A DNA stretch of 64,000 nucleotides. Source: a virus. The notes below the pieces were generated by a model that was given only the letters and a program-made list of their open reading frames with translations, did no database searches and had not been told where the DNA came from. Made by a program: the position numbers and the translations under genes. Each line of letters begins with the position of its first letter. The first letter of the stretch is position 1. This document shows, piece by piece, positions 32,185 through 52,143 of the stretch. Location of the stretch: IMG/VR virus record IMGVR_UViG_3300044630_002434, positions 1-64,000 of that record; one strand, 5' to 3'.

Positions 32185-32383
32185 TGTCTGGGTTTCCCTC
32201 TTTTCAGTTATACACCAACTTGGTGATAACACCATTCTATCATCTAACCTGACATTTGTCAAACACAAGTATTTACCGCGTGTCTGGTGTCAATTTGCTT
32301 TTTGTCAGGTTAATGTGGTATGCTTATCTTGTAGGACAACGAAGGGTCACACAGAAGAAAGCCTCCCGAAAGGGGGGCTTTCT

Positions 32384-32569
32384 TTATTTGTCTAGAATTC
32401 TAAATACGGGTTCGCAAGGGTCGCCACCCTCTTCAGCGTATTCCTGTTCTTCAGGTGTTAGGTAGTCCCAGCCACTATCGTGTACCGCACAATACTGTTC
32501 GCTAATCCACCCTTTTGTTATACCGAACAGCACCCATTCTGCGCGTTCATCCCATTCTTCGTCTTGCAT
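32384..32569 (-). CDS. small acidic phage protein
   Basis: WVLFGITKGWIS..YCAVHD....EEGGDPC motif. Confidence 0.65.
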   Translation of the reverse strand: MQDEEWDERAEWVLFGITKGWISEQYCAVHDSGWDYLTPEEQEYAEEGGDPCEPVFRILDK

Positions 32570-32587
32570 CTCGACCCCTTAAAAATT

Positions 32588-33148
32588 TCAGTTATCTTTA
32601 TACTGTACCGTAATGTGAATAGTTCCGCCAGTACCTGAATCCAAGTAAGACGAGATAGTTATGGCTTCCTTTAGGTAAGCCTTTGCTTCTTCCACTGTGA
32701 CCTTAGCCCCAACCATTGAATGCAATGCGCCAAGCGCGAATGATGAACCGCTACCAATACCGTAAATACCTGCAACATCTCTTGCCCAGCAGTAGTCGTT
32801 AGCAATTTCATAGACAATCCCATTGACACAAACTATGATGTCAAACTCTTGGTTTCCGTCTTTTGCGTAGCCATTTGTTTCAAAGTAGCCTCTGATTACT
32901 GGAATCAGTTTAGTAGAAACAAACTTATCGAGTTTAACTCCACTCAAGTTCTCCGCATCAGGCAAAGGAATGTCCGCAAGTAAGTTCACAGCCCTTAAAT
33001 CTCCCGCTGCGCCTACGAGATAGTTTCCGTTCTTAGATACTTTCTTTATCCCATTTGGTAAAAGATAGACTCTGTTGTCTGAGGAAATCTGAGAGTCGAA
33101 CCCAACAACCGTGAAACCCTCTCCCTGAATTGCTGCAATAGTTGTCAT
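32588..33148 (-). CDS. Ntn-hydrolase, proteasome-beta/HslV-like protease
   Basis: N-terminal MTTIAA (Thr1 nucleophile), DSQ, conserved Lys, GIGSGS, D..TGG. Confidence 0.85.
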   Translation of the reverse strand: MTTIAAIQGEGFTVVGFDSQISSDNRVYLLPNGIKKVSKNGNYLVGAAGDLRAVNLLADIPLPDAENLSGVKLDKFVSTKLIPVIRGYFETNGYAKDGNQEFDIIVCVNGIVYEIANDYCWARDVAGIYGIGSGSSFALGALHSMVGAKVTVEEAKAYLKEAITISSYLDSGTGGTIHITVQYKDN

Positions 33149-33165
33149 TGGAAAAAATTTCAGTC

Positions 33166-33432
33166 CTAAACTTCGTAGTCAATCGCGTCATCCCAAAGTA
33201 AATCTTTTAGTTCACTTTCGTATTTTGCTGAGTTCCAGCCATTAGTTTTTTCGGAGATGTCTTCCTCATCAACAATTGAATCTAAAGATAATACTGCCGT
33301 GTAGCCGTCATCCTCGAACATAACTATTAACTTGGTGTCATCTCTGTCCGCGTCATCAACAATAGCAACGACAAAGGACTCGCCCATACGATTAACGTGA
33401 TACGCGCTCTGGAGAATTTCTAATCTGCTCAT
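33166..33432 (-). CDS. hypothetical acidic protein
   Basis: 88-aa ORF. Confidence 0.6.
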   Translation of the reverse strand: MSRLEILQSAYHVNRMGESFVVAIVDDADRDDTKLIVMFEDDGYTAVLSLDSIVDEEDISEKTNGWNSAKYESELKDLLWDDAIDYEV

Positions 33433-33469
33433 AGCAAAAACATTACCGCATCCTAAGAGAGGCTATTTT

Positions 33470-33715
33470 TTACTTAGAAACCCTGCCTACATACACGGTA
33501 GTACGCCTATCGCTTAGGCTCACTACCTTGACAATCTTGCTAGTGTTGTCGAGATTAAGTTCTCTAATCAACGCACTAGCCCTTGGGTTATTGACCGTGC
33601 TAAGTTGCTTATGCGCGTAGGCAATCGCCAACCCCAAAGAGGTTTGAGTTCTACTCTCTAGGGGAGGCTTTATTTCCTTGCCCTTAGAGTTCATTAGTGT
33701 TACTGAATACTTCAT
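33470..33715 (-). CDS. hypothetical basic protein (leaderless start)
   Basis: ATG 6 nt after TAGACT -10. Confidence 0.6.
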   Translation of the reverse strand: MKYSVTLMNSKGKEIKPPLESRTQTSLGLAIAYAHKQLSTVNNPRASALIRELNLDNTSKIVKVVSLSDRRTTVYVGRVSK

Positions 33716-33741
33716 ACCTCTAGTCTACCTAAAAATTTCAG

Positions 33742-33989
33742 TTTGTCAAGTTAGTCAAAATACTCTATGACAACCGCGCCCACGAAAGAAACCGCACCAA
33801 TTACTAGAGTTGCGATTAGGTAGGTAGGTGTTATAACTACTGGCTTTAGTAATCCAATAAACATAAGTTGTAGTTCCAGTAATGCCAATGGCAATGAGCC
33901 AATAGCAACATAAGTTAGTACGGCTTGTAAGTTAAATAAAAACATCTTGCTCTCCTTTTCTTTATCGCCCCTTGCGATAACTCTATTAT
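33742..33989. repeat. 248-bp direct repeat, copy 1
   Basis: Identical by inspection to 40198-40445. Confidence 0.93.
33751..33945 (-). CDS. 64-aa two-TM membrane protein, copy 1
   Basis: MFLFNLQAVLTYVAIG...VIEYFD, AAGGAG RBS. Confidence 0.75.
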   Translation of the reverse strand: MFLFNLQAVLTYVAIGSLPLALLELQLMFIGLLKPVVITPTYLIATLVIGAVSFVGAVVIEYFD

Positions 33990-34171
33990 AACATAACTCT
34001 TTTGGCTTGTCAAGCATTACTAAACATACGGCAACATTTGATGAAACCAAGACAAATCGTCTTTAGTAATCTTTCCTAGTTTAAGACCAAGGTAGTAAAG
34101 GTCGGCAACTTTTTTCTTGTAGTTTCTATCCATAAAACTATTATAGAGTATTAACCTGACTTTGTCAAGTT

Positions 34172-34298
34172 AAACGCCAGACGCGCCACCGAAAGGGGTT
34201 AAGGTGACGCGCCTAGCATTTGTGAGTGGGGAGAAAGGGGGGCAACCCCACTCGTATTCGGAGCATAGGGAGAAGGGAGTAAACCCTTGCTCTACGAA
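34172..34298 (-). ncRNA. candidate sRNA with three C-rich (anti-SD) hairpin loops
   Basis: Three consecutive hairpins, no ORF, TGcTAAAGT extended -10 just upstream. Confidence 0.55.
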
Positions 34299-34447
34299 CT
34301 CCTCTACTTTAGCATAAAAAAATTTCAGTTATGCTTCCGTGTCGGAATTTTTAACAATCTCCGCAGACTGACTTGCTCGAAACTTTCTTCGAGTCAAGCC
34401 CAAACCTTTTACCGCATCTCCAGCAGTTAGTAAAGATAGTCACTACT

Positions 34448-34666
34448 TCACTCCCCAATCTCTGGAATGTCGTAGTCATTAAGAGTCTGGCACTTCGGGC
34501 AAGTCCAAACACCGCGACCCCAATCGTCAAAAGATACTTCCTCTTGACCCTCGTACTGGCAAGCAACTTCATCTAAACCAAGTTCGATAGTGCCTAAACA
34601 AACTACTTCAATGTCTGCTGAATCCGCGTAGAATCCTGACCCTCTTAGTGAACCTTCGTAACTCAT
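34448..34666 (-). CDS. small Cys-containing (Zn-ribbon-like) protein
   Basis: WTCPKCQ; promoter, leader hairpin and RBS present. Confidence 0.65.
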   Translation of the reverse strand: MSYEGSLRGSGFYADSADIEVVCLGTIELGLDEVACQYEGQEEVSFDDWGRGVWTCPKCQTLNDYDIPEIGE

Positions 34667-34985
34667 TTTGTTTCCCTTCTTTATCGCCCCTTGCGATAAC
34701 TCTATTATAGCATACTTCTTTTTAAGTTGTCAAGTTATCTAACAACCGTGCCGTTCCAGTCTGACGGTAGTAGGTATTTAGCCTTCAATGAGTCGTGACA
34801 GGTATCTACAACTATCTGACAAACATCATCTATTATGTGTTCGCCTATCCCGTCAAGGTAGGCTCTTAAATTTTCCTGCAACTGTTCTTGCAAATCTTTA
34901 ATGCTCATTTATTTCTCCTTTCATAAAAATAAATAAAAGTTCCCCGACCCTAAATTTCCAAAATTATCTAGGGGCGGGGAATTCT

Positions 34986-35180
34986 TTAGTTGTCGTTAAT
35001 ACCTAGCAAAGCGAAAATTTCATCTTCGTTTAAGACAGTAACCTTTTCTCCACTATCATCAACAATCTTTACGCTAGTCACGCGGTAAGAGTTAGCAACC
35101 AAGTCACGAACTTCTTGCGCCGTGTTAGCGGTAAAACTGTATTCGTTATCTTTCGACTTCATTGTTACGTTGTAAGCCAT
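34986..35180 (-). CDS. hypothetical protein
   Basis: MAYNVT start after AGAAGGGAG RBS. Confidence 0.65.
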   Translation of the reverse strand: MAYNVTMKSKDNEYSFTANTAQEVRDLVANSYRVTSVKIVDDSGEKVTVLNEDEIFALLGINDN

Positions 35181-35194
35181 TTCGTTCTCCCTTC

Positions 35195-35510
35195 TTGGCT
35201 CTACCCTTTCCGCACTTTGCGGAAAAGTTTTCAGTTTATGAAGTAGGTAGGTGGCTCTCTCAACCACCTGTATGCGCTTCCCCACGCTTCCTATTCGGCT
35301 ACCTACTTCAGTTTTGACTGGCGAACTACGCACCGCACTCCAGTTGTAGTTGTCTTATCTAGTGCAAGACCAGTCAAGTCTTAATAAAGTGAGCCTTGGT
35401 CTGCAATCATTGTTAGGTAGTTGTAGTCAGGCTATTTGCCTTTTCCGTTCACTAACGACCCGTTACCCGTTTATCCTCGGCACTCACTTCGTATCTCTAT
35501 TTAGTTATAA
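35195..35510 (-). ncRNA. candidate multi-domain structured RNA or long 5' leader
   Basis: Perfect stems 35239-50/35299-310, 35314-21/35370-77, 35387-93/35483-89; own promoter TTGCGA..TAGACT. Confidence 0.55.
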
Positions 35511-35544
35511 CCCTAGTCTATCATACTAGGTCTGCTTTCGCAAG

Positions 35545-35623
35545 TCCCAAGAGTAGGAATCGAACCTACCGTGCCAAAGCGAGTGATTTACAGTCACCTT
35601 CCCCACCTTGGGGAATCCTTGGG
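35545..35623 (-). tRNA. tRNA-Tyr(GTA), atypical, no encoded CCA
   Basis: Acceptor CCCAAGG/TCTTGGG+A, anticodon arm GGTGA-CTGTAAA-TCACT, T arm GTAGG-TTCGATT-CCTAC, 12-nt variable region. Confidence 0.8.
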
Positions 35624-35976
35624 GTTATTTAATTATGAGTCTAGTTTATCATACTAGTTATCTCTTGTCAAGTTCCTCGATTAGTCTTGTTCGGCGTACA
35701 ACATCTTTGGTACTCCAACCTTGACCAATCTCGGCGCAAGACTGTAAGTAATAATCTAAGTCTTGAATTTCATCGTGAAGTTCATTGACCGTGAGTTCTT
35801 CTACTTGTTTGTTTCTTGTAAGCATCTTTGCCCCTTTCGTTCCTCAAGTCTATAACATCTACCTGACAAATGCAAGTCACGGGGAAAGATAGTTTAACGA
35901 AGGCGGGACTCAGAATAAAAAATTTCAGTTATGCCCAAAAAAGAAACCCGCATTTCTGCGGGCTTCCATTTTTAGA

Positions 35977-36150
35977 TTAGTAGTTTTCGTTCACCCAATC
36001 CACAACGTCTTGCATTGTGTCCGCGCTACGCGCTACCGCTAGAAAGTTCTCATCTTCTAGCAATAGGTGTTCGGAAACCGTAGTTTCTCCCGCAACGAAA
36101 CCTAGTACCACTCTCAAATTTAGAGTTGTCATTAGTTGTCCTGTTGTCAT
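35977..36150 (-). CDS. hypothetical early protein
   Basis: Promoter at 36196, GAGGGG RBS. Confidence 0.6.
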   Translation of the reverse strand: MTTGQLMTTLNLRVVLGFVAGETTVSEHLLLEDENFLAVARSADTMQDVVDWVNENY

Positions 36151-36519
36151 TTTTTCACCCCTCTCCGTGTGATAACACGAGTCTATCATACCTACCTGAC
36201 AATTGCAAGCAAATAAGAAAACCCCCGTATTAACGGGGGCTTTCTCCGTATCGCTTAGGCGTAGATAACCTTAAACACTAAGTCCATAGCGTGACGCTCG
36301 GCATCTGACCAAGCACTTTCACCTCTAAACTTTTTAACTGTCTTGCCATTGACGCGAACGATACCACTCATTGAATCTGACTCAACGGTGATGCCGTGTC
36401 CATAATCTGTAGTTTCCATAACTACCCCTTTCGTTATCTCTATTGTAGCGTATTAACCTGACAAATGCAAGTCATAAAGAAAACCCCCTCCGTAGAGGGG
36501 GCTTTCCAAGGGGTTCGCG

Positions 36520-36828
36520 CTATACGTTGAATAGGTTCTGCACGGCGGTTAATGCTTTTGTATCTTTGCCACCAACGTGCCAACGGTAGTAACCGTAGTT
36601 AATTCCATTTTCGTAGTTCTTCCAATCGTAGATACTCGCGACAAAAACCTCGCCAGTTTCTTCATCTTCAAACTTTAGTAACCATTCTGCCTGTACCTTA
36701 TCTTCGGGGTATCCCGTGTAGTGAGGTTCTCCCAACTTTTCTACAATAGTTGCGTAGGTTGTATTGACGTACCCAACTAATGAAGTTCCGCTTATGTCTA
36801 CAGAATTACTTTTCTCTATAAGTTTCAT
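36520..36828 (-). CDS. conserved phage hypothetical protein
   Basis: GTSLVGY..TTY..IVEKLGEP..DKVQAEW...IYDWK..WHVGG. Confidence 0.75.
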   Translation of the reverse strand: MKLIEKSNSVDISGTSLVGYVNTTYATIVEKLGEPHYTGYPEDKVQAEWLLKFEDEETGEVFVASIYDWKNYENGINYGYYRWHVGGKDTKALTAVQNLFNV

Positions 36829-36984
36829 TTTTTCTCCTTTTCGTGGCATCTCCACTACCTAAAGTAAACCATACAACCTGACCTTTGTCAAGTTGTGCAA
36901 ACTCCCGCGCGTCCCTAAAAAATTTCAGTTTTAAGTTCCCGCGCAAAAAATAATCCGCCCCGTAGGGCGGACCATTTTTGTAGG

Positions 36985-37458
36985 TTAGAATCTGCGAGCG
37001 CAGACTGGACCAATACCGCGAGCAACCGAAACCTCATCAGTTAGTTCACGACCGCAAGCGACACACACGCCAAACTGCAAACCGTAGTCGCAAGCCTGTT
37101 CAAGAGTCATCTTGTCATTAGCCGAGATAGCGCGAATGTAACTAGGGTCATACTGGAATGACCCCCCAACCAATTTGGTTGCGTATGGGCGACCTGACGA
37201 CTGCGAAATTTTAACGCGGTAGACAACGCCCTCCTTAAAGTAAACGCCGACCTCAAGCGCGACAACTGGCGCGGTAGTGCGTGACTCGCGCGGTGCGTAT
37301 GGAAACGACCGCAGGGTGTCAATGAGGGTACTGGCTTCGCGCTTGGATAGCACGGTGATGTCGCCAATGGTGGCGCGGAATGTGTCCGAAACTTCGCGTG
37401 ACGCGAGCAGGGACTGGGCATACGAGATTTGGCTCTCGGTGGCTTGTGTTGTGTTCAT
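36985..37458 (-). CDS. DUF6011-like Zn-finger protein
   Basis: CVACGRELTDEVSVARGIGPVC C-terminus. Confidence 0.8.
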   Translation of the reverse strand: MNTTQATESQISYAQSLLASREVSDTFRATIGDITVLSKREASTLIDTLRSFPYAPRESRTTAPVVALEVGVYFKEGVVYRVKISQSSGRPYATKLVGGSFQYDPSYIRAISANDKMTLEQACDYGLQFGVCVACGRELTDEVSVARGIGPVCARRF

Positions 37459-37640
37459 AGAACAACACTATCAAGTAACCTGACAAAAGTCAAGCGAAGA
37501 ACTCAGAACTATTTTTTCCGGGCTGAGCCTGGCAAAAAGCCTGGCGACAAAACTGAAATTTTTTACCCCGCGCAAAATTAAAAAATTAAAACCAAAAACC
37601 CCCAGCGATTTGCTAGGGGTCATTGGCTAGGGGTTATTCG

Positions 37641-37865
37641 TTAAGCACTTATCTTTTCGCCGAGATAGATTTCTAACTCCGTGCTGTTTTCTCTTGTCTT
37701 TCGGTCTAGAACTTCTTGAACTTCGTCAAGAGATTTTCCAAACTCATACGACACGGTAAGAATTGCAGACAATACGCCGTATTCGTTTGTGTCTAGGCTT
37801 GGGTACTTTGCTATGTGCAAAGCATTGTAAGACTTTAGAAAGTCTTGAGTATTTAGTGTTTTCAC
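37641..37865 (-). CDS. hypothetical early protein
   Basis: GTG start after AAGGAG; promoter at 37924. Confidence 0.6.
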   Translation of the reverse strand: MKTLNTQDFLKSYNALHIAKYPSLDTNEYGVLSAILTVSYEFGKSLDEVQEVLDRKTRENSTELEIYLGEKISA

Positions 37866-37973
37866 TTCATTCTCCTTTTTAGTTGCCCTTTGCAACTTCA
37901 TAAAACAATCATAACACACTTGTCTGACAAATGCAAGTAAGGTGCGCCAGCCGTAGCCAGCGCACCCGTGAAC

Positions 37974-38318: not shown

Positions 38319-38576
38319 CTCTTCCCTTTCTTTGTGGTATTTCCACTAATAGAAATAATACCACATCTCCCTGACATTTGCAAGTTAATTTTTCCGTGTG
38401 GGTTTCCGACCTAAAAAATTTCAGTTATCTAACTCAGCGCAAAAATTATTCTTCTATCGAATCAAAATAGTTGTTCACATCAACGATTGAGCAAGGTTCG
38501 CATTGCTCATAGTCACCATCAAGGCTGAACTTGTCTAGCGCATTACCGCACTCAATGCAAAGTTTTAATTCGTTCA

Positions 38577-38765: not shown

Positions 38766-38872
38766 TTTGCTACCTCCCTTTCTTGTATTTCTATTGTAGC
38801 GCATTAGTCTGACATTTGCAAGTAACCGCGCAAAAAGAAAGAGCGAGCCTTTCGGCTCGCCCCTCCTAGAGT

Positions 38873-40445: not shown

Positions 40446-40771
40446 TCCATAAGGATTGACATTTGTCAAGCCTAGTTCGCTTCCGCGATAGCGTGTCGGC
40501 GTTGGGCAGACCTATCGCGGTTACGGCGTGTACGCCTATCCGCAAACTTTGCAGACTTCTGGTTTAGGACATAGTGTCCCGAACCTGTCACTAGATTGTC
40601 TAGTGGACTCTTGCGCTTAGCCATCTCTGACTCCTTTCAATAAATCTATTGTAGCACACTTCCCTGACATTTGTAAAATTACCCGCGCAAACTTTTAGTA
40701 AAAAATTTCAGTTATGAATTTTAAGAAAAAAGAAAACCTCGCCCTTTCGGGTGAGGCTCTCTTTCTACCTA

Positions 40772-40975: not shown

Positions 40976-41412
40976 TTTGTTCTCCCTCTATCAGTCACTC
41001 CCTGCAACTTGATAAATCAAGTTTAACATACTTACCTGACATTTGTCAAGTCACCGCGTGTTCGGCGTGTCGCAATTTTGTAGCACCCCTTTCCCTAAAA
41101 AATTTCAGTTATGAAAATAAGAAAACCCCACCTTTCGGTGGGGCTTTCCTTTGGTGGCTACTTACTTGGGTGACGGTGCATAGCCGAGTGAAGGTTGAGA
41201 TAACCCAACACATCATTACGAGTTAGGACTTCGCGACCCTGCGAGCAGGTTGGGCAGATAACTAACTTGCCTAGTCCTAGTGAAACTAGTGTGCGCTTTA
41301 GTGTATTCACGCTTTTCTCCTTTCCTTATGTAATAATTGTATCATACCTTTATGACATTTTCTGTATTTCGAGAAAATAAACCCCGCCCGTAGGCGGGGC
41401 TTATTTTAGTGG

Positions 41413-41604: not shown

Positions 41605-41758
41605 TTGTGTCCTCCCTTCCGTTAAAACTATTCTAGCGTACTTACCTGACATTATCAAGTTAAACGCCAATTTATTTTTTTCCTCGTGTTCATAACTGAA
41701 ATTTTTTAGCGAGGCGACAAAAAAATCCGCGCAATCTTCCGCGCGGGCTTCTTTGTGT

Positions 41759-42034: not shown

Positions 42035-42157
42035 TTTGTTCCCTTTCTTTTGCAACTCCCTGTTGCTAGTACCTAGCGTACACTACTTCCCTGACATTTG
42101 CAAGTTGAAAGGGGGGCGAGTTTCCCCGCCCCCTTTTCGTGCGCCCCTTAGCGCGGA

Positions 42158-42631: not shown

Positions 42632-43031
42632 TTTAGTTTTCTCCTTCTTGTTCTTCGATTACTTCTACATAAACTTCGTCTTTTTTGTAGGTTTCAATTT
42701 CAGAGAAGAAACGATTTTTAACTTCAATTTCTATCTCTTGGTCGGTAAGGTTTTCACCTTTTATTTCAATGGTGATACTAGCCGTACAGATGTAGGTAGT
42801 CATTGTATTTCCCTTCTGTAAGCAAGTCCCTCTTGCCTACTCTGTAAGTGTATCATACTACTCTGACATTTTCAACTTGAACGCGAAACTATTTTTTCCG
42901 CGCCCGCCCCCGTAAAAAATTTCAGTTTTGAAAAATAGAGAAAGCGCGAATCTCTCCGCGCTCTCTCATTTGTTATTCGACTTCATTATCCGTAAGGATT
43001 TGCTCTACTAAATACTCAACCGTGTATTCTA

Positions 43032-43328: not shown

Positions 43329-43422
43329 TTTGTTTCCCTTCTTAGAGTGAGTCCCTCTCGCTCTATGATAAGTATACGCCCCTAGCCTGACATTTGTCAA
43401 ATCAGGGGCGCATACCGCGTGT

Positions 43423-44059: not shown

Positions 44060-44239
44060 TTTTTTCCCTTCTCGGTAAGTCCCTCTCACCAATAACTCTA
44101 TAATACACTACTAGCCTGACATACGCAAGTCGAACACGAAATTATCTTTTCCCGCGCCTTCGCTGAGTCCGCCAGAAAAAATTTCAGTTATCGCTAAACC
44201 AAGAAACCCCTAGCCTTTCGGCTAGAGGCATCTTTTGGA

Positions 44240-44416: not shown

Positions 44417-44509
44417 TTGCTTCCCTTTCGTATTCGCCGTACTTCGGCTTATGTAATAAGGATACACTAAACCCCTGACATTTGTCAAGGGCTTAGTGTC
44501 CCTGCGTGT

Positions 44510-45263: not shown

Positions 45264-45355
45264 TTGAGTCCCCTTTCGTTTTGTCGTATTTCGACTATGA
45301 GATAAGGTTACACCCAACCCCTGACATTTGTCAAGGGCTGGGCTAACCTGCGTGT

Positions 45356-45670: not shown

Positions 45671-45906
45671 TTTGAGTGTTTATCCTTTTCTGTTAGTGAC
45701 TTTCACCAACAAGTACCACTTTAGCAGATTACCCTGACATTTCCAAATCGAGATTTTTGATGCGTGTTGCGGTAAAAAATTTCAGTTTTGCGCAAACGAA
45801 AACCCGCACCGAAAAAATTTCAGTACGGGCTTCGCTTAGAAACTGTCGGAAGGCTGACACACGCTGGAAGGACGATACCCCCCGACAGGGCTTATGGGTT
45901 ATTCAA

Positions 45907-47715
45907 TTATCCGTTACGGTTTCCCATAGCGGTTAGTGCTTTCGCACACGCTTGTCCGATAGCGTTGGACGCTTCCGTTGGAGAAGTCACTCCGCTTAAC
46001 GGCTCTACCGTTGTCCCCCTTAGGAGACTTCTGGCACTAGACCCGTTGTCGAACGGTATCCATACTACCGCAACGCCGTTACTCTCACATTGCGACACCC
46101 AACTCCTTGCTTTCTGGGACTCCTCATAGGTGAACACGCCGTCCGATACCACAACTAGAAGCCTAGCACCGTCGCCGTTAAGCAGATTTAACTCGCCGTC
46201 TACTGCCTTGAACGCCTTGTCAAACTTTTCAGTTCCGTCTGGCGCTGTGTAGACCGTTACATCCGTTAGGTGCTGACCACTCTTAAGGGTAGGGAACACA
46301 TCGTCACCGTAGTAAACCATCGCGCACTTACCTTGCACTCGCCGAGTTGCTTCCGACATTACCCACGCCGTTGTCGCCATCGGTTGCATAGCCGAGTTCA
46401 TCGAACCGCTAATGTCTACCAGCACGCCGACCTTTAGTGTTGGCTCGTCCGTTGTCTTGCGGACTCGCTTACGCCAAGGTTGCGCCGTTGGTTGCACGCC
46501 GATTGATTTGTGCGCTTCGTTCTGGATAGCCGAGCGAGTTCGTAGCCGTCCACCGGGGACAATGCTACGCACTTCGATAACATCGCGCTCGCGATACTTC
46601 GCACGCTCTAGTGCGCTCGCCACTTTCACCGCGCTAATGCGCTCGTCTGCCGTAGGCTTGCGAACCTCTATTGCGCGACTACGAGTACGGCTAGAGTCTG
46701 ATGGACCAGTGCCACGCCCGAAAACTTCTTGAGCAACTTTAATGTTCTCACGACTTTGCTTTGCACTGTCCGCGCGATTCTTAACTTCGTCTTTCCATTC
46801 CTCTGACTCCTCTTGGTCAGCAAGTTCGGAGTAGTTAGATACCGCAACATTGTCAGATGCTTCTTTCAACCTCTCAAGTAATTCTTTTAGTGCTTCACCA
46901 ATTTCAGATGTGGATTCGCCACTGCCACCAGAAGTGCTTTCGCTACCAGACGTATCCTCGCCACGTTCGTTTGCAAGGTCACGAATAATCTGTGCCCACT
47001 CACGCGCTAGAGGATAAACAGGTTCTAGGTTTCTGTGGTCTGTGTGTGTAATGAAACGCTCGATAACATTAGATAACTTTTCAACAGTTTCGTTGCCTAA
47101 GTATTCCTCTACAAAATCTGTAACTTCTAGAACATCATCGCGCTCTAAGATTCCACCAATGATTCGACCATGCACTAGTCCAACTAAAGTTGCAATGTTT
47201 GAAACAGTGCCTTGCGTTAAATCTGATGATTCAAAATCTGCGATAACAATTTCCATCGCGCTTGAGCGTAGGAATGCGCGATACCTAGCATCAAGCAAAA
47301 TACCTTGTGCTTCGATTCGTGTTTCCTCGAGTAGCATTAGTGCTTCGTATTCGTCTGACTTTAATGCGTCATAAGCAGACTCTAGACTCCACTTTGAGAA
47401 CCGCGCGTGAAATGCTTCGTGCATCACTGCGCCAGTAGCCTTTGGGAATTCGTACTGCGTTGAGCGTTCGTTGATGTCGCCAATGTGTTCTGGCTTAATG
47501 CCAAACCCAAAAGCAATTTCTGTGTTTACTTCAATCTCTGCAATCGCTGGTTTGTAGCACGCTGGCGCATTGCTACCTGCAACAGGAGATGCAAGCCCAA
47601 CTAAATCGCTACGACCTGCTACGCCATTTGCTAGTTGTGCAATCTGCGAACCAACTGCGTACCATTCTGGATGTCTATCTCCAGAAGTCTTACTATGTGT
47701 GTCAATGTGTGCCAT
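45907..47715 (-). CDS. VWA domain protein with N-terminal HExxH (CobT-like)
   Basis: HEAFH, LEETRIE, MIDAS DISGSM, GTE, VVSDG. Confidence 0.85.
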   Translation of the reverse strand: MAHIDTHSKTSGDRHPEWYAVGSQIAQLANGVAGRSDLVGLASPVAGSNAPACYKPAIAEIEVNTEIAFGFGIKPEHIGDINERSTQYEFPKATGAVMHEAFHARFSKWSLESAYDALKSDEYEALMLLEETRIEAQGILLDARYRAFLRSSAMEIVIADFESSDLTQGTVSNIATLVGLVHGRIIGGILERDDVLEVTDFVEEYLGNETVEKLSNVIERFITHTDHRNLEPVYPLAREWAQIIRDLANERGEDTSGSESTSGGSGESTSEIGEALKELLERLKEASDNVAVSNYSELADQEESEEWKDEVKNRADSAKQSRENIKVAQEVFGRGTGPSDSSRTRSRAIEVRKPTADERISAVKVASALERAKYRERDVIEVRSIVPGGRLRTRSAIQNEAHKSIGVQPTAQPWRKRVRKTTDEPTLKVGVLVDISGSMNSAMQPMATTAWVMSEATRRVQGKCAMVYYGDDVFPTLKSGQHLTDVTVYTAPDGTEKFDKAFKAVDGELNLLNGDGARLLVVVSDGVFTYEESQKARSWVSQCESNGVAVVWIPFDNGSSARSLLRGTTVEPLSGVTSPTEASNAIGQACAKALTAMGNRNG

Positions 47716-47849
47716 CTCTGGCTCCTTCCTTTGTACGCCCCTTTGACGTACTCTGTGAGTTTATCATACCTTTCTGGAATCTCCAAATTGGGGTAGGGGA
47801 GTCGGAAAACACTCACGAAAACCGACTCCCCCTTTAGCAAGGAAAGGGA

Positions 47850-48881
47850 CTAAATCCTTGCTGGCTTATACTCCGCACCAAACACTCGCGACAAAACATC
47901 TGCCACGATTGGTCTGTCCATCTCTGGTGCAGAAGCAAGTAAGTTCGAGATACCAAACGGAACCCCGAATGTTGTAACGATGTCGCGAAACGCTAGGAGT
48001 TCGCGCATCTGTGGAGCCCAAGATACTTCACCAGACTCTTGCTTCTTAGCAAGGTTCTGCGCAACAGTAACTAGGTTGCTAGGTACACCTAAGGTGCGAG
48101 CAAGTGACCAGTCAGTTGCCATCTCTGCTTGAACAGTAAAGCGAGATAGTAACGCTTCTGAAAGTCGTACCCCCGGAGCATTAGGGTTAGTTGCGCCCAC
48201 GACATAGAAGTCAGGGTGAACCTTGACAGTACCTCTATCTGGATTAGCAGTAACAGTAATTTCGCCACGTCCATCCATTGCGCCATACAAACCTGAAAGT
48301 TGCTTAGGGTCAATCAGACCAATTTCGTCAATAAACAAAACCGCACCTTCCTCTGCTGCTCGTACAAGTGGACCATCTACCCACTCGAAACCACCTGATG
48401 GATTCTGTACGAAACCACCAAGGAAGTCTGACATTTCAATGTCAGCAGTTCCAAGCACTGTGTACATGTTTCCAGCAAACGCTGCTTCGACTAATGCAGT
48501 CTTACCAGTTCCCGGTGCGCCATAAAGCAACGCGAACATTGGCGAACCAACTTTGTCTGTAACAGCCAAGGTAGTTGCTTCACGAGCCTTGCGTAGTGTC
48601 GCAACATCTTGATGCTCGCCCCAAGTTCGAGCGTGGTACACACTTCCATTTGGGCGAGTGTATTGACTACCACTTGACTCAAGTGTTACACCTGATGTTG
48701 TGATTGGTGTCGCTACGCGAGCCACGCGAGGTGCGCGTTCTACGAAACGACCTTGTGGTGATACCTGCGAGATTACTCTCATAGATGCTTCTGGTGATAC
48801 TGACTGCGCAACCATGTCGTCTAACATGGAAGTGAATTCAGTTCCCCACTTTGAATAAATTTCATTTTCTTTGATGCTCAT
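47850..48881 (-). CDS. MoxR/CbbQ/CobS-type AAA+ ATPase
   Basis: GAPGTGKT Walker A, WVDGPL, LFIDEI Walker B, ATNP, LSEALLSRF. Confidence 0.9.
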   Translation of the reverse strand: MSIKENEIYSKWGTEFTSMLDDMVAQSVSPEASMRVISQVSPQGRFVERAPRVARVATPITTSGVTLESSGSQYTRPNGSVYHARTWGEHQDVATLRKAREATTLAVTDKVGSPMFALLYGAPGTGKTALVEAAFAGNMYTVLGTADIEMSDFLGGFVQNPSGGFEWVDGPLVRAAEEGAVLFIDEIGLIDPKQLSGLYGAMDGRGEITVTANPDRGTVKVHPDFYVVGATNPNAPGVRLSEALLSRFTVQAEMATDWSLARTLGVPSNLVTVAQNLAKKQESGEVSWAPQMRELLAFRDIVTTFGVPFGISNLLASAPEMDRPIVADVLSRVFGAEYKPARI

Positions 48882-48897
48882 AATTTTCAGTCCCTTT

Positions 48898-49365
48898 CTA
48901 CGCTGTGAACATTTCTGGATAAGATAATGCAGTTCGAGTCTGATTGATTCGATGCACGACCTTAGTTGGAGTCTTGCTGTTTGTTACGTCAGTCAAGTCT
49001 TTCTGTGAAACTTCCACAAAAAATGGCTTGCCAACGATTGTGCTACTAATTGAAACGCGCTTCATAAGCCACGCTAGTGTCTCAATTCGTCCCTCGCGAT
49101 GTTCATCTGATGTAGACCCTGTTACTGGGTCAACAAGTTGACGCTGGAGTGTTTGTATTTTCCATTGCTTCTTTGGTTGTGAAACCGAAAGACGACGATA
49201 GTAAGCACGTGCTATTGAGAAATTTCCATGTTCGTTCCAACCATCTGGTGTAATGAACATCTGAAAAATCTGATGGTATTCATTTTTGAATTCCACATAC
49301 AAGGCAGTGCCTTGTACTTTCTTTTCTGGGTCTGTAAGCAGACCAAGAGGTGTTTCTAGTGACAT
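48898..49365 (-). CDS. hypothetical protein in AAA-VWA operon
   Basis: ORF directly upstream of the ATPase. Confidence 0.6.
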   Translation of the reverse strand: MSLETPLGLLTDPEKKVQGTALYVEFKNEYHQIFQMFITPDGWNEHGNFSIARAYYRRLSVSQPKKQWKIQTLQRQLVDPVTGSTSDEHREGRIETLAWLMKRVSISSTIVGKPFFVEVSQKDLTDVTNSKTPTKVVHRINQTRTALSYPEMFTA

Positions 49366-49487
49366 GAGTGTTTCCTTCCCTTTATGTCTTTGTCCCTGTG
49401 ACAAGTCTTACTTTAGCATAACTCTATGATGTAGTCAAATCGGGGTAGGAGTTTTTCTAAGGAGACCTACCCCGACCTGACCCCTAA

Positions 49488-49820
49488 CTACTTAGCGACA
49501 ATGATGTCGTAAGTAGAAACCTTGGCGCATTGTTCATACGCTTCGGGGTTCGACAACTTCAACTTCTCGGAGTCGATAGTCGTGCGAGAGCGTGGTGCGA
49601 GTTCAACCACTGGTAAACCCTTGACAGTACCTGTCTTGGCTGAACCAATGAGTTCGCGAATAGCATTGTCAATTTCTGACTTTGCCTTTTCGAGTTCCTT
49701 GATTGCAAGTTTTGCGTTAGCAAAATCTGCAAGCAGGTTCGCGATGTTGGTGTCGTCCAATTCAACAGTGGACGTTTCTGTGACAACCTGTGTTGTCGTT
49801 ACCTGTGTGCGTATGCTCAC
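49488..49820 (-). CDS. coiled-coil protein resembling the C-terminal part of YqaJ-type phage proteins
   Basis: IKELEKAKSEI...RTTIDSEKLK...PEAYE. Confidence 0.5.
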   Translation of the reverse strand: MSIRTQVTTTQVVTETSTVELDDTNIANLLADFANAKLAIKELEKAKSEIDNAIRELIGSAKTGTVKGLPVVELAPRSRTTIDSEKLKLSNPEAYEQCAKVSTYDIIVAK

Positions 49821-50133
49821 TTTGGCGATTCCCCTTTCAGGAGTATTCGATAGACCATCTAACGAACAGTTGCAACTTTACACGATGTCCCTGACATTTG
49901 TCAAATCGAGCGTGTCCACCCCAATTTCTTGGGCTGTTTCGTTCATAGAACCAATGTAACACACGAACCTGACAAAGCGCAACTTATTTAGATAACGATT
50001 TGATAACGGACCCGGAAATAAAAAATTTCAGTTCTGGGTTGTTGGAGGCAGGCTTCAATAAAAAATTTCAGTTTTAGGCAAAAAGAAACCCCCGTCCGAA
50101 ACTCGCTGGTTTCGATTTAACGGGGGCTAATCT

Positions 50134-50331
50134 TTATGGGGTTTCTAGTTCTTGTTCCCACTTTATGGTGTCGTACATTCCCCAGATTTCATCATCTGTG
50201 AAGTTCTCGTGCAACCAGATAGAGGCGCGAGTCTGGGTTACTGGGTTTTCGTCTACTGGCTTAGCAGTTCCGAAGATGCTACCCATAAGGGCGTTGTATG
50301 CGTGTGCGTTTGCTTCATGCGGTTTGTTCAT
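50134..50331 (-). CDS. hypothetical protein
   Basis: ATGA coupling to the glycosylase gene. Confidence 0.55.
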   Translation of the reverse strand: MNKPHEANAHAYNALMGSIFGTAKPVDENPVTQTRASIWLHENFTDDEIWGMYDTIKWEQELETP

Positions 50332-50792
50332 ACTCCTACGGTAACACGAGGCACTGACATTTCTTCAGGTGTCCAAATGTAGGGGAGGTCACTTGGCGTA
50401 TCAGAAAAAAATTCAGAATAATACTCAGGTGCTTTCCGTAAAAGATTCGAACGGTGTGATTCGTGGAACGCTAGGTTTCCGATGAACCACGGCAAGCCTT
50501 CGTACCGCTTACCTTCGACCGTCAGTTCTCGCATCCGTTGCACGAAGTACGGTAACAGGTTGTCCACGTATCCGCGACTCTTCCACTCCGACGACATCGC
50601 TGAACCGTAGTACGCGAGCACGAACTCGTAACCCGTCCACATCTTGGTCGCGGGATGGTTCACCCATCCCTTGGTCTCGCCGTTAAGTGCCATCAGTATC
50701 TGCTTGGTCTCTACCCGTTGCTTCCCAAGCCGTCGGTAGTCCAATACGCTCGCCGTCTTCTCGAAGTCCGCGTATGGCAGGAACGTCTGCAT
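50328..50792 (-). CDS. pyrimidine-dimer DNA glycosylase family (MSMEG_6728/endonuclease V-like)
   Basis: MQTFLPY..F...A..LD..RLGKQRVE..QI, HPA..MW.G, HESHRSNLLRK, LPYIW. Confidence 0.88.
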   Translation of the reverse strand: MQTFLPYADFEKTASVLDYRRLGKQRVETKQILMALNGETKGWVNHPATKMWTGYEFVLAYYGSAMSSEWKSRGYVDNLLPYFVQRMRELTVEGKRYEGLPWFIGNLAFHESHRSNLLRKAPEYYSEFFSDTPSDLPYIWTPEEMSVPRVTVGV

Positions 50793-50977
50793 TAGCGCTC
50801 GCCGTTCTCTCGAACTAGCGCGATTGCTCTCGCCATGCCTGCAGACCATCCGTCGTTGAACGCGACATCCACTTCGTTCTCTTCTTCAGCGTCCGTCATG
50901 TCTTCTTCGGTTACCCGTTCCCACTCCTCCATTAAAATTTCTAACAGCGTCATGCGGTCACGCCCGCCAACTTCCAC
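50792..50977 (-). CDS. hypothetical protein
   Basis: Coupled ORF. Confidence 0.5.
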   Translation of the reverse strand: MEVGGRDRMTLLEILMEEWERVTEEDMTDAEEENEVDVAFNDGWSAGMARAIALVRENGER

Positions 50978-51189
50978 GCCTTCTTTAGGTCGCGGTCGAA
51001 GTCGCGTTGCAGTTTAGCCCACGCCGTTTCGTCAAAAAGAATTGGGTGGACCTCTTGCTTGTTTCGGTTAAGTACTCGCCGTATAAAAGATTTCAGTTCT
51101 GTGTAGTTCATGTTTTGGTTCCTCCTTTGCCAAGCAAGGCACGCCGTGTGCCTCGCCGTCTTGATGTATTAACTTTATGATAAAAGTTT

Positions 51190-51474
51190 TTAGATGTCAA
51201 GCGCGTACTCTGGAAGTTCTAGACCTGCTCCGTTTAACGCTCGCCGTATTAAACCTTGCTGACGCGAGGTTGTCTGCGAGTATTTACCTACGTTCAGATA
51301 AGTAACCTGACGTTTTTCTGTGTTTACACTAGCCATCCGTGTTGAGTACGAGTAGATGTCGTAGATGATGTCGCCACTGGCATCAGACCACTTAGAGGCT
51401 TTCATGCTGTGACCGTGCTTGAATGGTTTAAACGCTGGAATAAATTCTTCTGCAATTTCTTTGTAACTAGGCAT
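51190..51474 (-). CDS. conserved phage hypothetical protein
   Basis: IYSYST.MA...KYSQTTSRQQ. Confidence 0.75.
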   Translation of the reverse strand: MPSYKEIAEEFIPAFKPFKHGHSMKASKWSDASGDIIYDIYSYSTRMASVNTEKRQVTYLNVGKYSQTTSRQQGLIRRALNGAGLELPEYALDI

Positions 51475-51560
51475 TTCTTAGTTCCCTTCTGTTGACGTGT
51501 CTCATCAACAAGAGCAACTCTATCATACCAACCTGACATCCGTCAACTCAGGGCACGCCG

Positions 51561-51908
51561 TTAAATTTCTTCAGGGTCAAGGTCAAAAAGATTTTCTTCG
51601 ACCATTCCCCAGAAAGTTTCGAAGGTCTTGGACTTCTCTTGAAGTTCCTCAATCGGTTCGTTGTACTCAACAACCGTTAGTTCAGGAACATGGTCCTCTT
51701 CGGGTTCGATGTGGTGGCTTTGGTAAATGTAGTCTCCGTCTTCGGTAATCAGGTACATGATTACGTACGCGCCACATTCGTTCTCGAATATGACTTGGTA
51801 CATTTTGGTCAACGGGTCGTAGATAGGGCATGACACAGAAAGCATGTCGTGCATGTAGGTCCCTTTGTGGATGATACGGCTTGGGTGAATCTTGTGGCGT
51901 TTGTTCAT
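51561..51908 (-). CDS. hypothetical protein (leaderless start)
   Basis: ATG just after -10 of promoter at 51931. Confidence 0.6.
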   Translation of the reverse strand: MNKRHKIHPSRIIHKGTYMHDMLSVSCPIYDPLTKMYQVIFENECGAYVIMYLITEDGDYIYQSHHIEPEEDHVPELTVVEYNEPIEELQEKSKTFETFWGMVEENLFDLDPEEI

Positions 51909-52143
51909 ACCAGCAGTATTGCACGCCTGCCTGACATTTGCAAATCGGTCGGGGGCACGCCGTCATAAAAAATTTCAGTTTTTAATTTGCACGGATGGAT
52001 TTTACGGACCCCTCCCGGAAAATATAAAAAGGAGGCGGGTGTGGCCTGGCGGCTTCTTCCAGGCTCAGCGGCTATCCGTTTAAAAAATTACGTCGACAAT
52101 CAGTGCGGCTATGAGAAGCGCTCCAAGTAGCGCGAATGGAAAC

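What the first reader, a model, noticed from the sequence alone, without database searches (positions are those of the whole stretch)
32234..51945. At least 21 phage promoters carry the PafBC / RecA-NDp DNA-damage signature TGTCAG-N10-TAnnnT
Seen: 21 promoters have exactly 10 nt between TGTCAG and TAnnnT, e.g. TGTCAG-ggaagtatgt-TATAAT (44851) and TGTCAG-gttaatacgc-TACAAT (36458). The -35 varies (TTGACA, TTGCAA, TTGGAA, TTGCGT) while TGTCAG is constant. Established: the LexA-independent actinobacterial DNA-damage promoter is TGTC(G/A)G-N10-TAnnnT, read by sigma-A when adapted by the WYL activator PafBC, which senses single-stranded nucleic acid. Inference: the phage wires much of its early regulon to the host damage response, or to its own WYL-type factor. 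A UV-repair glycosylase lies in this region.
Basis: partly seen in the sequence, partly recalled or inferred. Interest (0 to 1): 0.88.

Follow-up and report, generated by a model that had tools for sequence, protein, structure and literature searches.

The report
Lake phage promoters with PafBC-type box
An uncultured lake phage of actinobacteria starts about two dozen small early genes from promoters that carry, at exactly the right place, the short DNA box that its hosts' DNA-damage activator PafBC reads, so the phage may plug into that host switch, but nothing has been tested at the bench.

Summary
Observation confirmed. TGTCAG-N10-TAnnnT occurs 23 times in the window against 0.62 expected. 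Of these, 22 lie in the stated interval, 21 on the minus strand, and the spacing peaks sharply at N10. The sites are sigma-70-type early promoters in front of small genes.

The phage host is an actinobacterium: the genome has two WhiB genes and actinophage-like capsid genes. The box matches the published PafBC -26 element tGTCgg(N10)tA(N3)T in sequence and position.

- Small low-GC actinobacterial genomes carry TGTCAG-N10-TAnnnT before recA and have tandem pafBC-like genes.
- Related lake phages keep the box. One relative often lacks any -35. A higher-GC subgroup uses YGTCRS, so only the GTC core and the spacing stay fixed.
- No phage WYL, PafB/C, AsiA or MotA homologue was found.

Against the reading:
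- 19 of 21 sites here also have a normal -35.
- Likeness to host sites stops at the core hexamer, the spacing and the -10.
- The host is unknown and binding is untested.

The palindromic-operator rival is not supported. The scan noted the same motif before in at least 89 other genomes. Reading partly supported, confidence about 0.45.

The parts
35847..35876 (-). early promoter: TTGCAT, then TGTCAG box, N10, TAGACT
   Evidence: start codon 22 nt after the -10
36180..36209 (-). early promoter: TTGCAA, TGTCAG box, N10, TAGACT; a terminator hairpin lies just upstream
36442..36471 (-). early promoter: TTGCAT, TGTCAG box, N10, TACAAT
37908..37937 (-). early promoter: TTGCAT, TGTCAG box, N10, TATGAT
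38355..38384 (-). early promoter: TTGCAA, TGTCAG box, N10, TATTAT; precedes the DUF3846 gene 37974-38318
38793..38822 (-). early promoter: TTGCAA, TGTCAG box, N10, TACAAT
40648..40677 (-). early promoter: TTTACA, TGTCAG box, N10, TACAAT
41020..41049 (-). early promoter: TTGACA (18-nt spacer), TGTCAG box, N10, TAAACT
41630..41659 (-). early promoter: TTGATA, TGTCAG box, N10, TAGAAT; an RNA-library contig covers 41411-41611 downstream
42075..42104 (-). early promoter: TTGCAA, TGTCAG box, N10, TACGCT
42847..42876 (-). early promoter: TTGAAA, TGTCAG box, N10, TACACT
43371..43400 (-). early promoter: TTGACA (18-nt spacer), TGTCAG box, N10, TATACT; sits inside a palindrome with 14-bp arms
44100..44129 (-). 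early promoter: TTGCGT, TGTCAG box, N10, TATTAT
44459..44488 (-). early promoter: TTGACA (18-nt spacer), TGTCAG box, N10, TATCCT; sits inside a palindrome with 12-bp arms
45305..45334 (-). early promoter: TTGACA (18-nt spacer), TGTCAG box, N10, TAACCT; sits inside a palindrome with 10-bp arms
45718..45747 (-). early promoter: TTGGAA, TGTCAG box, N10, TAAAGT
49875..49904 (-). early promoter: TTGACA (18-nt spacer), TGTCAG box, N10, TAAAGT; downstream member of a tandem pair with 49974
49953..49982 (-). early promoter: TTGCGC, TGTCAG box, N10, TACATT; upstream member of the tandem pair
50338..50359 (-). host-like site without a -35: TGTCAGTG..., N10, TACCGT, then an ATG 6 nt later (leaderless layout); lies inside the 3' end of the glycosylase gene; identical in relative G002
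   Evidence: the only early-arm site that a recA-derived matrix scores at 12 bits or more
51517..51546 (-). early promoter: TTGACG, TGTCAG box, N10, TAGAGT
51915..51944 (-). promoter variant: TTGCAA, TGTCAG box, N10, AATACT; missed by the exact pattern; same form in G002
32234..32262 (-). promoter variant: TTGACA-AA-TGTCAG with N9 before TAGAAT (17-nt spacer)
32295..32324 (+). plus-strand site TGTCAG, N10, TATGCT; faces away from the promoter at 32234-32262
33985..35671 (-). stretch holding five consensus-type promoters without the box (slots at 34006, 34161 with AGTCAG, 34725, 35536, 35664); the one at 35664 lies just upstream of tRNA-Tyr
   Evidence: the tRNA promoter is box-less in G002 too
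35544..35623 (-). tRNA-Tyr (gta)
50328..50849 (-). pyrimidine-dimer DNA glycosylase gene (Pfam Pyr_excise, E 9.2e-22)

Best explanation
The interval is the early arm of a roughly 120-kb, apparently lytic, uncultured lake siphovirus of actinobacteria. It holds some 40 sigma-A (sigma-70-type) promoters, most in front of a small gene.

About two thirds of them carry an 11-bp block, CAAA-TGTCAG-G, whose TGTCAG sits at about -28 to -23, exactly 10 nt before the -10. This is the place and core sequence of the -26 element read by the HTH of PafB, part of the actinobacterial WYL activator PafBC.

Proposed mechanism (inferred): the promoters work in two modes. Plain sigma-A holoenzyme can use the -35 and the often extended -10. 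Holoenzyme 'adapted' by PafBC that has bound single-stranded DNA can use the box instead. Such PafBC-adapted enzyme should build up once phage DNA ends or nuclease action produce single strands. The phage's early genes would then stay favoured, or be boosted, just when the host turns on its damage response.

Shown here: the sites, their spacing, their gene context, their conservation in relatives, the actinobacterial host signal, and the same core and spacing at recA of candidate host lineages.

For: 1. Enrichment and exact spacing: 23 matches against 0.62 expected. The count is 25 at N10 and 0-4 at each other spacing.

2. Match to the published motif tGTCgg(N10)tA(N3)T: box at -23 to -28, GTC strictly conserved, PafB HTH reading the two G:C pairs (passages of PMC8635444).

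3. Actinobacterial host: two WhiB genes, and capsid and ATPase nearest to actinophages.

4. Host side. Of 20 small actinobacterial genomes (my choice among 195 with RecA), 17 have one TGTC[AG]G-N10-TAnnnT before recA. The other three have CGTCGG or TGTCGC at N10. Six of the 17 use TGTCAG. Five 1.4-Mb genomes of one lineage use it and also have tandem WYL ORFs next to tatC. Sampled segments of these five have 47.7% GC; the phage has 43.4%.

5. The box stands alone. In relative G001, whose early proteins are 33-73% identical and whose ATPase is 68% identical, 11 of 18 box promoters have no TTG -35. Loci L236 and L249 have TGTCAC or TGTCAA plus an extended -10 and no -35.

6. The pattern of variation mirrors PafBC sites. 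Three relatives with 55-56% GC use CGTCAC, CGTCGC, TGTCGC, CGTCAG or TGTCGG at N10 before TATAAT: 14-15 sites at N10 against 1-6 at other spacings.

7. Purifying selection. All 19 promoter pairs with a detectable orthologue in G002 keep TGTCAG. Meanwhile the -35 zone changed at 34 of 162 positions and the spacer at 34 of 180.

8. No phage-encoded reader was found: no WYL, no PafB/C-like ORF among 2,428 ORFs (best E 0.12), and no AsiA or MotA. No early gene is present in all 14 motif-bearing loci and absent from the motif-free ones.

9. Some host sites also combine TTGC at -7 to -4 with the box: 4 of 20 sites, 3 of them followed by a LexA-type box.
Against: 1. PafBC promoters are defined as lacking a -35. 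Here 19 of 21 have TTG at a 17- or 18-nt spacer and 11 of 21 have an extended -10. They should therefore fire without any activator.

2. A full-width matrix built from 15 distinct recA sites scores only 50359 and 88818 at 12 bits or more. Shuffled genomes gave 0-3 hits. The likeness is therefore limited to the hexamer, the spacing and TAnnnT. Host sites mostly read TGTCAG-TG, whereas phage sites read TGTCAG-G in 19 of 23 cases.

3. The host is unknown. The five candidate genomes show only a slight excess of the pattern over its reversed control: 10 v 8, 11 v 4, 7 v 5, 5 v 4, 9 v 4.

4. Many relatives do without the box. Twenty-seven loci of 15 kb or more have no peak. Neither do DSL-LC01, Pumpernickel, Phendrix, Sixama or GMA2.

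5. Box promoters are only slightly further from consensus than box-less ones: 8.81 v 9.78 of 12, with n = 21 and 9.

6. TGTCA is also the reverse complement of the -35 core. Some of the resemblance could therefore have arisen from a palindrome.

7. The downstream genes are mostly unknown small proteins, not repair genes.

Confidence: 0.45

Rival explanations
1. The box is the site of a regulator that is not PafBC. It could be phage-encoded, delivered in the virion, or another host factor. One example is a repressor that shuts off early promoters after the early phase. Another is an activator of a delayed-early class, working like the T4 MotA box. On this view the likeness to the PafBC element is coincidence or convergence.
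For: The promoters have good -35 and -10 elements, so an added site in the spacer suits repression.

There is a separate box-less class of consensus promoters (34006-35664), one of them before the tRNA. This suggests two regulatory classes.

Most of the 50 early proteins have no known family: 18 Pfam families matched among them. An unknown DNA-binding protein could therefore hide among them.

The box is limited to sub-clades of the phage group, as a phage-specific system would be.

The base after the box differs from host sites.
Against: No helix-turn-helix or other DNA-binding family was found among the 50 early proteins.

No gene co-occurs with the box in all 14 box-bearing loci; the best is 7 of 14. 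These loci cover only about 20 kb each.

The exact coincidence of core, spacing and GTC-only conservation with the PafBC element would have to be chance.

In G001, L236 and L249 the box stands where a -35 should be. That fits a positive element better than an operator.
Confidence: 0.3
2. The box is an intrinsic promoter element. It would be contacted by the actinobacterial holoenzyme itself or shape the spacer DNA. It would have spread because the promoters are copies of one another, with no dedicated factor involved.
For: The promoters share much more than the box: the -35 flank, an extended -10 and an AGnGTTAT start region. This is consistent with copying of one promoter cassette.
Against: Box-less promoters of the same family are at least as close to consensus, so the box is not needed for the core.

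The flanks diverge by about 20% between G000 and G002 while the box does not change.

Distant relatives keep only GTC and the spacing. That points to selection on a specific contact. I know of no holoenzyme contact at -26 (recalled).
Confidence: 0.12
3. TGTCAG is the right half of a symmetric TGACA-N2-TGTCA operator for a dimeric repressor that overlaps the -35.
For: Six exact N10 sites read TTGACA-AA-TGTCAG, and a seventh (32255) does so with N9. Three promoters (43392, 44480, 45326) sit in palindromes with 10-14-bp arms centred there, and relatives have the same.
Against: The left half is TGACA in only 8 of the 23 sites tallied, and the TTG shifts by one base relative to the box.

In G001, 11 of 18 sites have no left half. 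L236, L249 and L258-260 do not have one either.

The sixth base is always G, not the A that symmetry would need.
Confidence: 0.03

Closest known systems
PafBC-dependent promoters of Mycobacterium and other Actinobacteria (RecA-NDp, recA P1 type), read by sigma-A holoenzyme through 'sigma adaptation' (PMC8635444, passages read; PMC11804915, passages read)
   Same: The core hexamer contains an invariant GTC and sits at -28 to -23. It lies exactly 10 nt before a TAnnnT -10. Sigma-A-type -10 elements are used. Related phages show the same kind of degeneracy (YGTCRN) as bacterial recA promoters.
   Different: A normal -35 is present in 19 of 21 sites. The spacer is AT-rich, and G rather than T follows the box. 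The genes served are small phage genes of unknown function, about two dozen in one 20-kb arm. No evidence of PafBC binding or of damage induction exists.
T4 middle promoters (a MotA box at about -30 replaces the -35; AsiA and MotA carry out 'sigma appropriation')
   Same: A phage promoter class is defined by a box next to or replacing the -35, combined with a host-type -10. It may redirect the host's primary-sigma holoenzyme (comparison drawn in PMC8635444).
   Different: No AsiA or MotA homologue was found. The box sequence and position differ. Here the putative reader would be a host protein.
Stoperators of cluster A mycobacteriophages such as L5 (many copies of an asymmetric repressor site). 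This comparison is recalled and comes from no call.
   Same: Tens of copies of an asymmetric short site, in one orientation relative to transcription, in an actinophage.
   Different: Here every copy is locked 10 nt before a -10. No integrase or immunity repressor was seen; the only recombinase is a 220-aa serine recombinase outside the window.
Arrays of strong early promoters in lytic phages such as T5 or SPO1 host-takeover modules (recalled)
   Same: Many closely spaced strong sigma-70-type promoters, each serving one or a few small genes, with terminators between them: 46 promoter-like sites v 27 expected and 41 terminator-like sites v 19 expected.
   Different: An invariant extra box lies in the spacer.

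Membership tests
PafBC-dependent (RecA-NDp) promoter | -26 element tGTCgg with invariant GTC at -28 to -23 | tested here: met
   TGTCAG occurs in 23 of 23 pattern matches. It also fills the slot in 23 of 42 sites found by a matrix that ignores the hexamer. The motif definition comes from PMC8635444.
PafBC-dependent (RecA-NDp) promoter | exactly 10 nt between the hexamer and a TAnnnT -10 | tested here: met
   25 matches at N10 v 0-4 at each other spacing from 6 to 14. Four box-like variants have N9.
PafBC-dependent (RecA-NDp) promoter | no -35 element (hybrid promoter) | tested here: not met
   19 of 21 sites have TTG at a 17- or 18-nt spacer. Only 50359 and 40669 lack it. In relative G001, 11 of 18 lack it.
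PafBC-dependent (RecA-NDp) promoter | host encodes PafB and PafC | tested here: inconclusive
   The host is unknown. All 5 candidate low-GC actinobacterial genomes have tandem WYL ORFs of 307-343 aa next to tatC.
PafBC-dependent (RecA-NDp) promoter | PafBC plus single-stranded DNA forms a complex with RNAP on the promoter and activates it; induced by DNA damage | not testable with these tools
   Needs biochemistry or reporters.
PafBC-dependent (RecA-NDp) promoter | overall likeness to bona fide sites beyond the core | tested here: not met
   A matrix from 15 distinct recA sites scores only 50359 and 88818 at 12 bits or more; shuffles gave 0-3. That matrix is overfitted to GC-rich orthologues.
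sigma-70 / sigma-A type promoter | -35 TTGACA-like, 16-18-nt spacer, -10 TAnnnT, upstream of a gene | tested here: met
   Mean 8.81 of 12 matches and an extended -10 in 11 of 21. There are 46 promoter-like sites v 27.0 expected in 32001-52000. A called start codon lies 8-55 nt downstream at 17 of 21 sites.
symmetric TGACA-N2-TGTCA repressor operator | both half-sites conserved at fixed spacing | tested here: not met
   The left half is TGACA in 8 of the 23 sites tallied. It is absent in 11 of 18 G001 sites.
T4-type sigma appropriation (MotA box) | phage-encoded AsiA and MotA | tested here: not met
   No match to PF09010 or PF09114 at E<=1 in the 119.7-kb record, which is 89% complete.
phage-encoded WYL regulator system | a WYL-domain gene in the phage | tested here: not met
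   No PF13280 match in G000. None scored over the cut-off in 14 related records.

The most novel reading that the evidence does not exclude
A whole clade of lake actinophages takes over host transcription through the host's own single-stranded-DNA alarm. Their early promoters carry both a -35 and the PafBC -26 element. Once infection produces single-stranded DNA (the early arm holds a RecE-like exonuclease family hit), PafBC-adapted RNA polymerase loses its -35 reading and is channelled to phage promoters. The two dozen boxes per genome copy may also soak up PafBC and blunt the host's repair response. This would be the first phage use of sigma adaptation by a WYL activator.
Probability: 0.3. 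Interest if true: 0.85.

Novelty: new variant of a known kind. Interest (0 to 1): 0.7.

Why it matters
PafBC 'sigma adaptation' is so far described only for host damage genes. If a phage clade has written that element into its early promoters, it would show several things:
- a new route of phage takeover that needs no phage-encoded factor;
- natural promoters that combine a -35 with a -26 element, which gives a direct test of how the two modes of the holoenzyme compete;
- a link between phage infection and the LexA-independent damage response in abundant freshwater actinobacteria.

I found no paper that describes this. The searches were PafBC+RecA-NDp (3 papers), PafBC+phage+promoter (54 papers, of which I saw 15 titles and abstract starts) and TGTCAG+phage+promoter+actinobacteria (1 irrelevant paper). 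Thirty-nine of the 54 papers were not looked at.

If the reading is wrong, the box still marks a conserved, unassigned regulatory site that defines one of two early promoter classes.

Tried and rejected
Relatives in the phage collection. A megablast of 10 kb of the early arm found nothing.

PafBC matrix test. A full-width matrix from recA sites did not pick up the phage promoters. I keep this as evidence against a close likeness. The matrix is overfitted to 15 related GC-rich sites.

Upstream ACACGC element. [AG]ACACGC lies upstream of about 10 promoters and also before recA in five genomes of one lineage. Among the other host sites only L177 has it, so I do not use it as a host link.

Core strength. 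Comparing core-promoter scores of box and box-less promoters gave only a small difference on small numbers.

Phyletic search. No early gene co-occurs with the box across all box-bearing loci. This is weak evidence, because each locus covers only about 20 kb and box-bearing loci are also each other's closest kin.

RNA evidence. One metatranscriptome run (contigs only) gave 5 contigs on the early arm. Contigs cannot show transcript starts, and DNA carry-over is possible. Parts without cover mean nothing.

Rfam. No family matched at gathering score in 31500-53500.

Literature. One search was badly framed, because PafBC was not required, and told me nothing.

Temperate lifestyle. The only recombinase is a 220-aa serine recombinase, so I dropped the immunity-repressor idea as a main reading.

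Cultured relatives have WhiB next to the ATPase gene but no box, so I rejected this.

The list of PafBC ChIP-seq sites from the earlier mycobacterial work could show whether natural PafBC promoters with a -35 exist, and I could not see it.

The wording tTGTCRgtg-N8-TAnnnT for RecA-NDp, the L5 stoperators, and the T5 and SPO1 comparisons are recalled and come from no call.

Unpublished genomes: seven genomes flagged as unpublished (G012, G020, G029, G035, G037, G041, G048) enter only the RecA tally.

Full report
**What is there**

The window is the first 64 kb of a 119,711-bp IMG/VR virus record with 43.4% GC, rated 89% complete. The pattern TGTCAG-N10-TAnnnT occurs 23 times in the window against 0.62 expected. 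Over the whole record, TGTC[AG]G-Nx-TAnnnT gives 25 hits at x=10 and 0-4 at every other spacing from 6 to 14. All 25 read TGTCAG.

The aligned sites show a full promoter:
- a -35 zone (T at -7 in 22 of 23, C at -4 in 17 of 23, A at -3 in 17 of 23);
- the box, followed by G in 19 of 23;
- an often extended -10 (T at +11 in 20 of 23, G at +14 in 16 of 23);
- TAnnnT, then a conserved start region.

Seventeen of the 21 minus-strand sites have a called start codon with a Shine-Dalgarno sequence 8-55 nt after the -10. Site 49974 is the upstream member of a tandem pair, 133 nt from the same start as 49896. At 41651 and 44480 the flanks show an ATG about 27 and 45 nt downstream. Site 50359 lies inside a gene. 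The 20-kb arm is rich in promoter-like sites (46 v 27.0 expected) and terminator-like sites (41 v 18.9 expected).

**Is the constancy of the box real?**

A matrix built from all positions except the hexamer finds 42 promoter-like sites in the genome. Twenty-three hold TGTCAG in the slot. Four hold a box-like word one base closer to the -10 (32255 TGTCAG, 36884 GGTCAG, 40462 TGTCAA, 39350 TGTTAG). The rest hold unrelated hexamers.

The box-less promoters include three perfect 12-of-12 consensus promoters (34006, 34161, 34725) and the promoter just upstream of tRNA-Tyr (35664). There are therefore two promoter classes, and the box is an addition to an otherwise complete promoter.

The conserved block is really CAAA-TGTCAG-G. 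The TTG of the -35 sits either 17 nt (TTGCAA-A-box) or 18 nt (TTGACA-AA-box) from the -10, whereas the box never moves.

**Host and gene content**

The capsid protein is nearest to Actinomycetia phage DSL-LC01 (65%) and to Microbacterium, Gordonia and Mycobacterium phages. The record has two WhiB genes outside the window. Its class II RNR is nearest to Saccharopolyspora and Actinotalea. The DNA is held by many lake-water metagenome runs. The host is therefore an actinobacterium, probably a low-GC freshwater one (inference).

Among 50 early-arm proteins, Pfam finds a pyrimidine-dimer glycosylase (50328-50849), an AAA_5 ATPase, a holin, a proteasome/HslV-like peptidase and several DUFs. It finds no DNA-binding family.

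**Comparison with PafBC promoters**

The passages I read of PMC8635444 give the in vivo motif tGTCgg(N10)tA(N3)T. The upstream part lies at -23 to -28 and is read by the HTH of PafB through the GTC triplet. No -35 is present, and PafC's HTH sits on sigma region 4. Passages of PMC11804915 say that complex formation needs single-stranded DNA. The phage box matches in core, spacing and position.

To see what candidate hosts use, I took 20 small genomes out of the 195 of 201 sampled Actinomycetia genomes that have RecA. I chose them for small size, and none is flagged as unpublished.
- Seventeen of the 20 have exactly one TGTC[AG]G-N10-TAnnnT within about 500 nt upstream of recA. Six of those use TGTCAG. 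The other three genomes have CGTCGG or TGTCGC at N10.
- Five 1.4-Mb genomes of one lineage use TGTCAG followed by a LexA-type box. Each has two adjacent WYL ORFs of 307-343 aa next to tatC, which is the pafBC arrangement.
- These five genomes show only a slight excess of the pattern over its reversed control. Most of their sites read TGTCAG-TG and many sit 6 nt before an ATG, a leaderless layout.
- Four of the 20 host sites fetched have TTGC at -7 to -4, as the phage has. Three of those carry a LexA-type box.

**Relatives**

The exact 14-mer TTGCAAATGTCAGG led to two related virus records. G002 (110.9 kb) has 20 sites on one strand. G001 (32.5 kb, 40% GC) has 18, with zero matches to the reversed control. 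G002 is close, mostly 80-97% protein identity. G001 is distant but syntenic: early proteins 33-73% identical, ATPase 68%.

In G001, 11 of 18 box promoters have no TTG. An A/T-rich run precedes the box instead.

Between G000 and G002, all 18 paired promoters and the variant at 51936 keep TGTCAG. Over the same pairs the -35 zone changed at 34 of 162 positions and the spacer at 34 of 180. The three remaining sites have no detectable orthologous gene in the part of G002 that I fetched. The tRNA promoter is box-less in both genomes.

Eighty further loci around homologues of the early ATPase (56-97% identity) split into groups:
- Fourteen have 8 or more [TC]GTC[AG]N-N10-TAnnnT on the gene strand.
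- Twenty-seven loci of 15 kb or more have 2 or fewer.
- Low-GC loci use TGTCAG.
- L236 and L249 use TGTCAC or TGTCAA with no -35.
- Three loci of 55-56% GC use CGTCAC, CGTCGC, TGTCGC, CGTCAG or TGTCGG before TATAAT, with 14-15 sites at N10 against 1-6 at other spacings.

Only GTC, the purine after it and the spacing stay fixed. The published description of PafBC sites, and the recA sites I collected, show the same pattern.

Cultured relatives (Phendrix, Sixama, GMA2, Pumpernickel) and DSL-LC01 show no such peak in 41-kb stretches.

**A phage-encoded reader?**

- No WYL domain in this record.
- None over the cut-off in 14 related records, two of which are 90% or more complete.
- No ORF like PafB or PafC among 2,428 ORFs of G000, G001 and 35 kb of G002. 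The best phmmer E was 0.12 and the best profile E was 2.1.
- No AsiA or MotA.
- No early gene is present in all 14 box-bearing loci and absent from the box-free ones. The best is 7 of 14, and this test is weak.
- WhiB does not track the box.

**Weighing**

For the PafBC reading:
- an exact match of core, position and spacing;
- the same degeneracy pattern across phage sub-clades;
- a box that stands where the -35 should be in several relatives;
- an actinobacterial host;

Against it:
- the -35 and extended -10 make these promoters self-sufficient on paper, which departs from the family's definition;
- a recA-derived matrix finds only 50359 and 88818;
- the base after the box differs from host sites;
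- the host is unknown;
- many relatives lack the box;
- part of the resemblance could come from the TGACA/TGTCA symmetry, which three promoters extend into long palindromes.

I put the host-PafBC, two-mode reading at about 0.45. Another factor, phage or host, acting as repressor or activator, gets 0.30. An intrinsic element gets 0.12. The symmetric operator gets 0.03.

**Relation to earlier notes of this scan**

A word search after I had formed this reading returned 100 notes in at least 89 genomes. They describe the same TGTCAG-N10-TAnnnT promoters in lake actinophages, and follow-up agents reached similar verdicts. These are AI notes on related DNA and are not independent evidence.

- the two promoter classes;
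- the floating -35;
- the -35-less relatives;
- the YGTCRS sub-clade;
- the negative matrix test;
- the negative cultured relatives;
- the host-side recA and pafBC checks.

**Verdict**

This is a new variant of a known promoter kind. It is unpublished as far as my searches reach, and it can be tested with existing PafBC biochemistry.

Noticed in passing
window 33985-35671, minus strand: Five consensus-type promoters lack the box: three are perfect TTGACA-N17/18-TATAAT, and one lies just upstream of tRNA-Tyr (35544-35623). Others face stretches without an obvious ORF. They look like a separate, unregulated promoter class, perhaps for RNA genes. Rfam finds nothing there.
   Followed up: partly
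window 40496-49916, minus strand, 14-31 nt upstream of the box: The word [AG]ACACGC lies upstream of about 10 box promoters, where 0.13 would be expected from its genome-wide frequency. The same word sits at -20 to -14 before the TGTCAG of recA in five 1.4-Mb actinobacterial genomes (L137-L141) and in one other host site (L177).
   Followed up: partly
window 43365-43406, 44464-44499, 45300-45340: Three box promoters sit in palindromes with 10-14-bp arms centred on TGACA-AA-TGTCA. Random positions rarely reach a 10-bp stem: 5 of 2000. The same is seen in relatives L186, L187, L255, L256 and L262. They may form cruciforms or hairpins, or act as terminators of the upstream gene.
   Followed up: partly
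window 33161-53365: The polar word AACTGAAATTTTTT occurs 15 times on the minus strand and 3 times on the plus strand. All copies are in or next to the early arm, often just upstream of promoters.
   Followed up: partly
window 50338-50359: A host-style site (TGTCAGTG..., no -35, ATG 6 nt after the -10, leaderless layout) lies inside the 3' end of the glycosylase gene. It precedes a 65-aa ORF and is identical in G002.
   Followed up: partly
window 32234-32330: Back-to-back promoters: a minus-strand TTGACA-AA-TGTCAG-N9-TAGAAT and a plus-strand TGTCAG-N10-TATGCT. The plus-strand one would read antisense into the end of the early arm and is followed by a strong hairpin at 32354-32385.
   Followed up: no
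window 10398-22757 and 3865-8994, minus strand: A 4,119-aa ORF has an RNase_T exonuclease domain. A 1,709-aa ORF has head-morphogenesis-like and DNA-binding PHROG matches. Both lie beside the portal and capsid genes. In a motif-free relative (G215), a 5,184-aa ORF has sub-threshold WYL-like matches.
   Followed up: no
G000:C1:64001-119711 (outside the window): Two WhiB genes (82683-82883 and 83691-83891). A 220-aa serine recombinase (71796-72458). Pfam hits, not located, to a Mom-family protein, ThyX, a Prim-Pol/D5 primase, and a histone-deacetylase-like and a dual-specificity phosphatase gene; these last two are probably the window's 30469-31920.
   Followed up: no
unnamed bacterial genomes G145:C1:439654-467143, G186:C1:927137-960928, G100:C1:450915-474346: In each of three small actinobacterial genomes, 5-8 TGTCAG-N10-TAnnnT sites cluster in a region of about 30 kb. 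Most read TGTCAGTG and several are leaderless, in front of genes of unknown function. This may be an island under PafBC control.
   Followed up: no
window 35131-35354, 41176-41313, 41411-41611, 44511-44765, 48352-48499: Five contigs of one lake metatranscriptome run lie on the early arm at 95-100% identity. They show that this phage, or a near relative, is present in an RNA library. They show neither transcript starts nor strand.
   Followed up: partly
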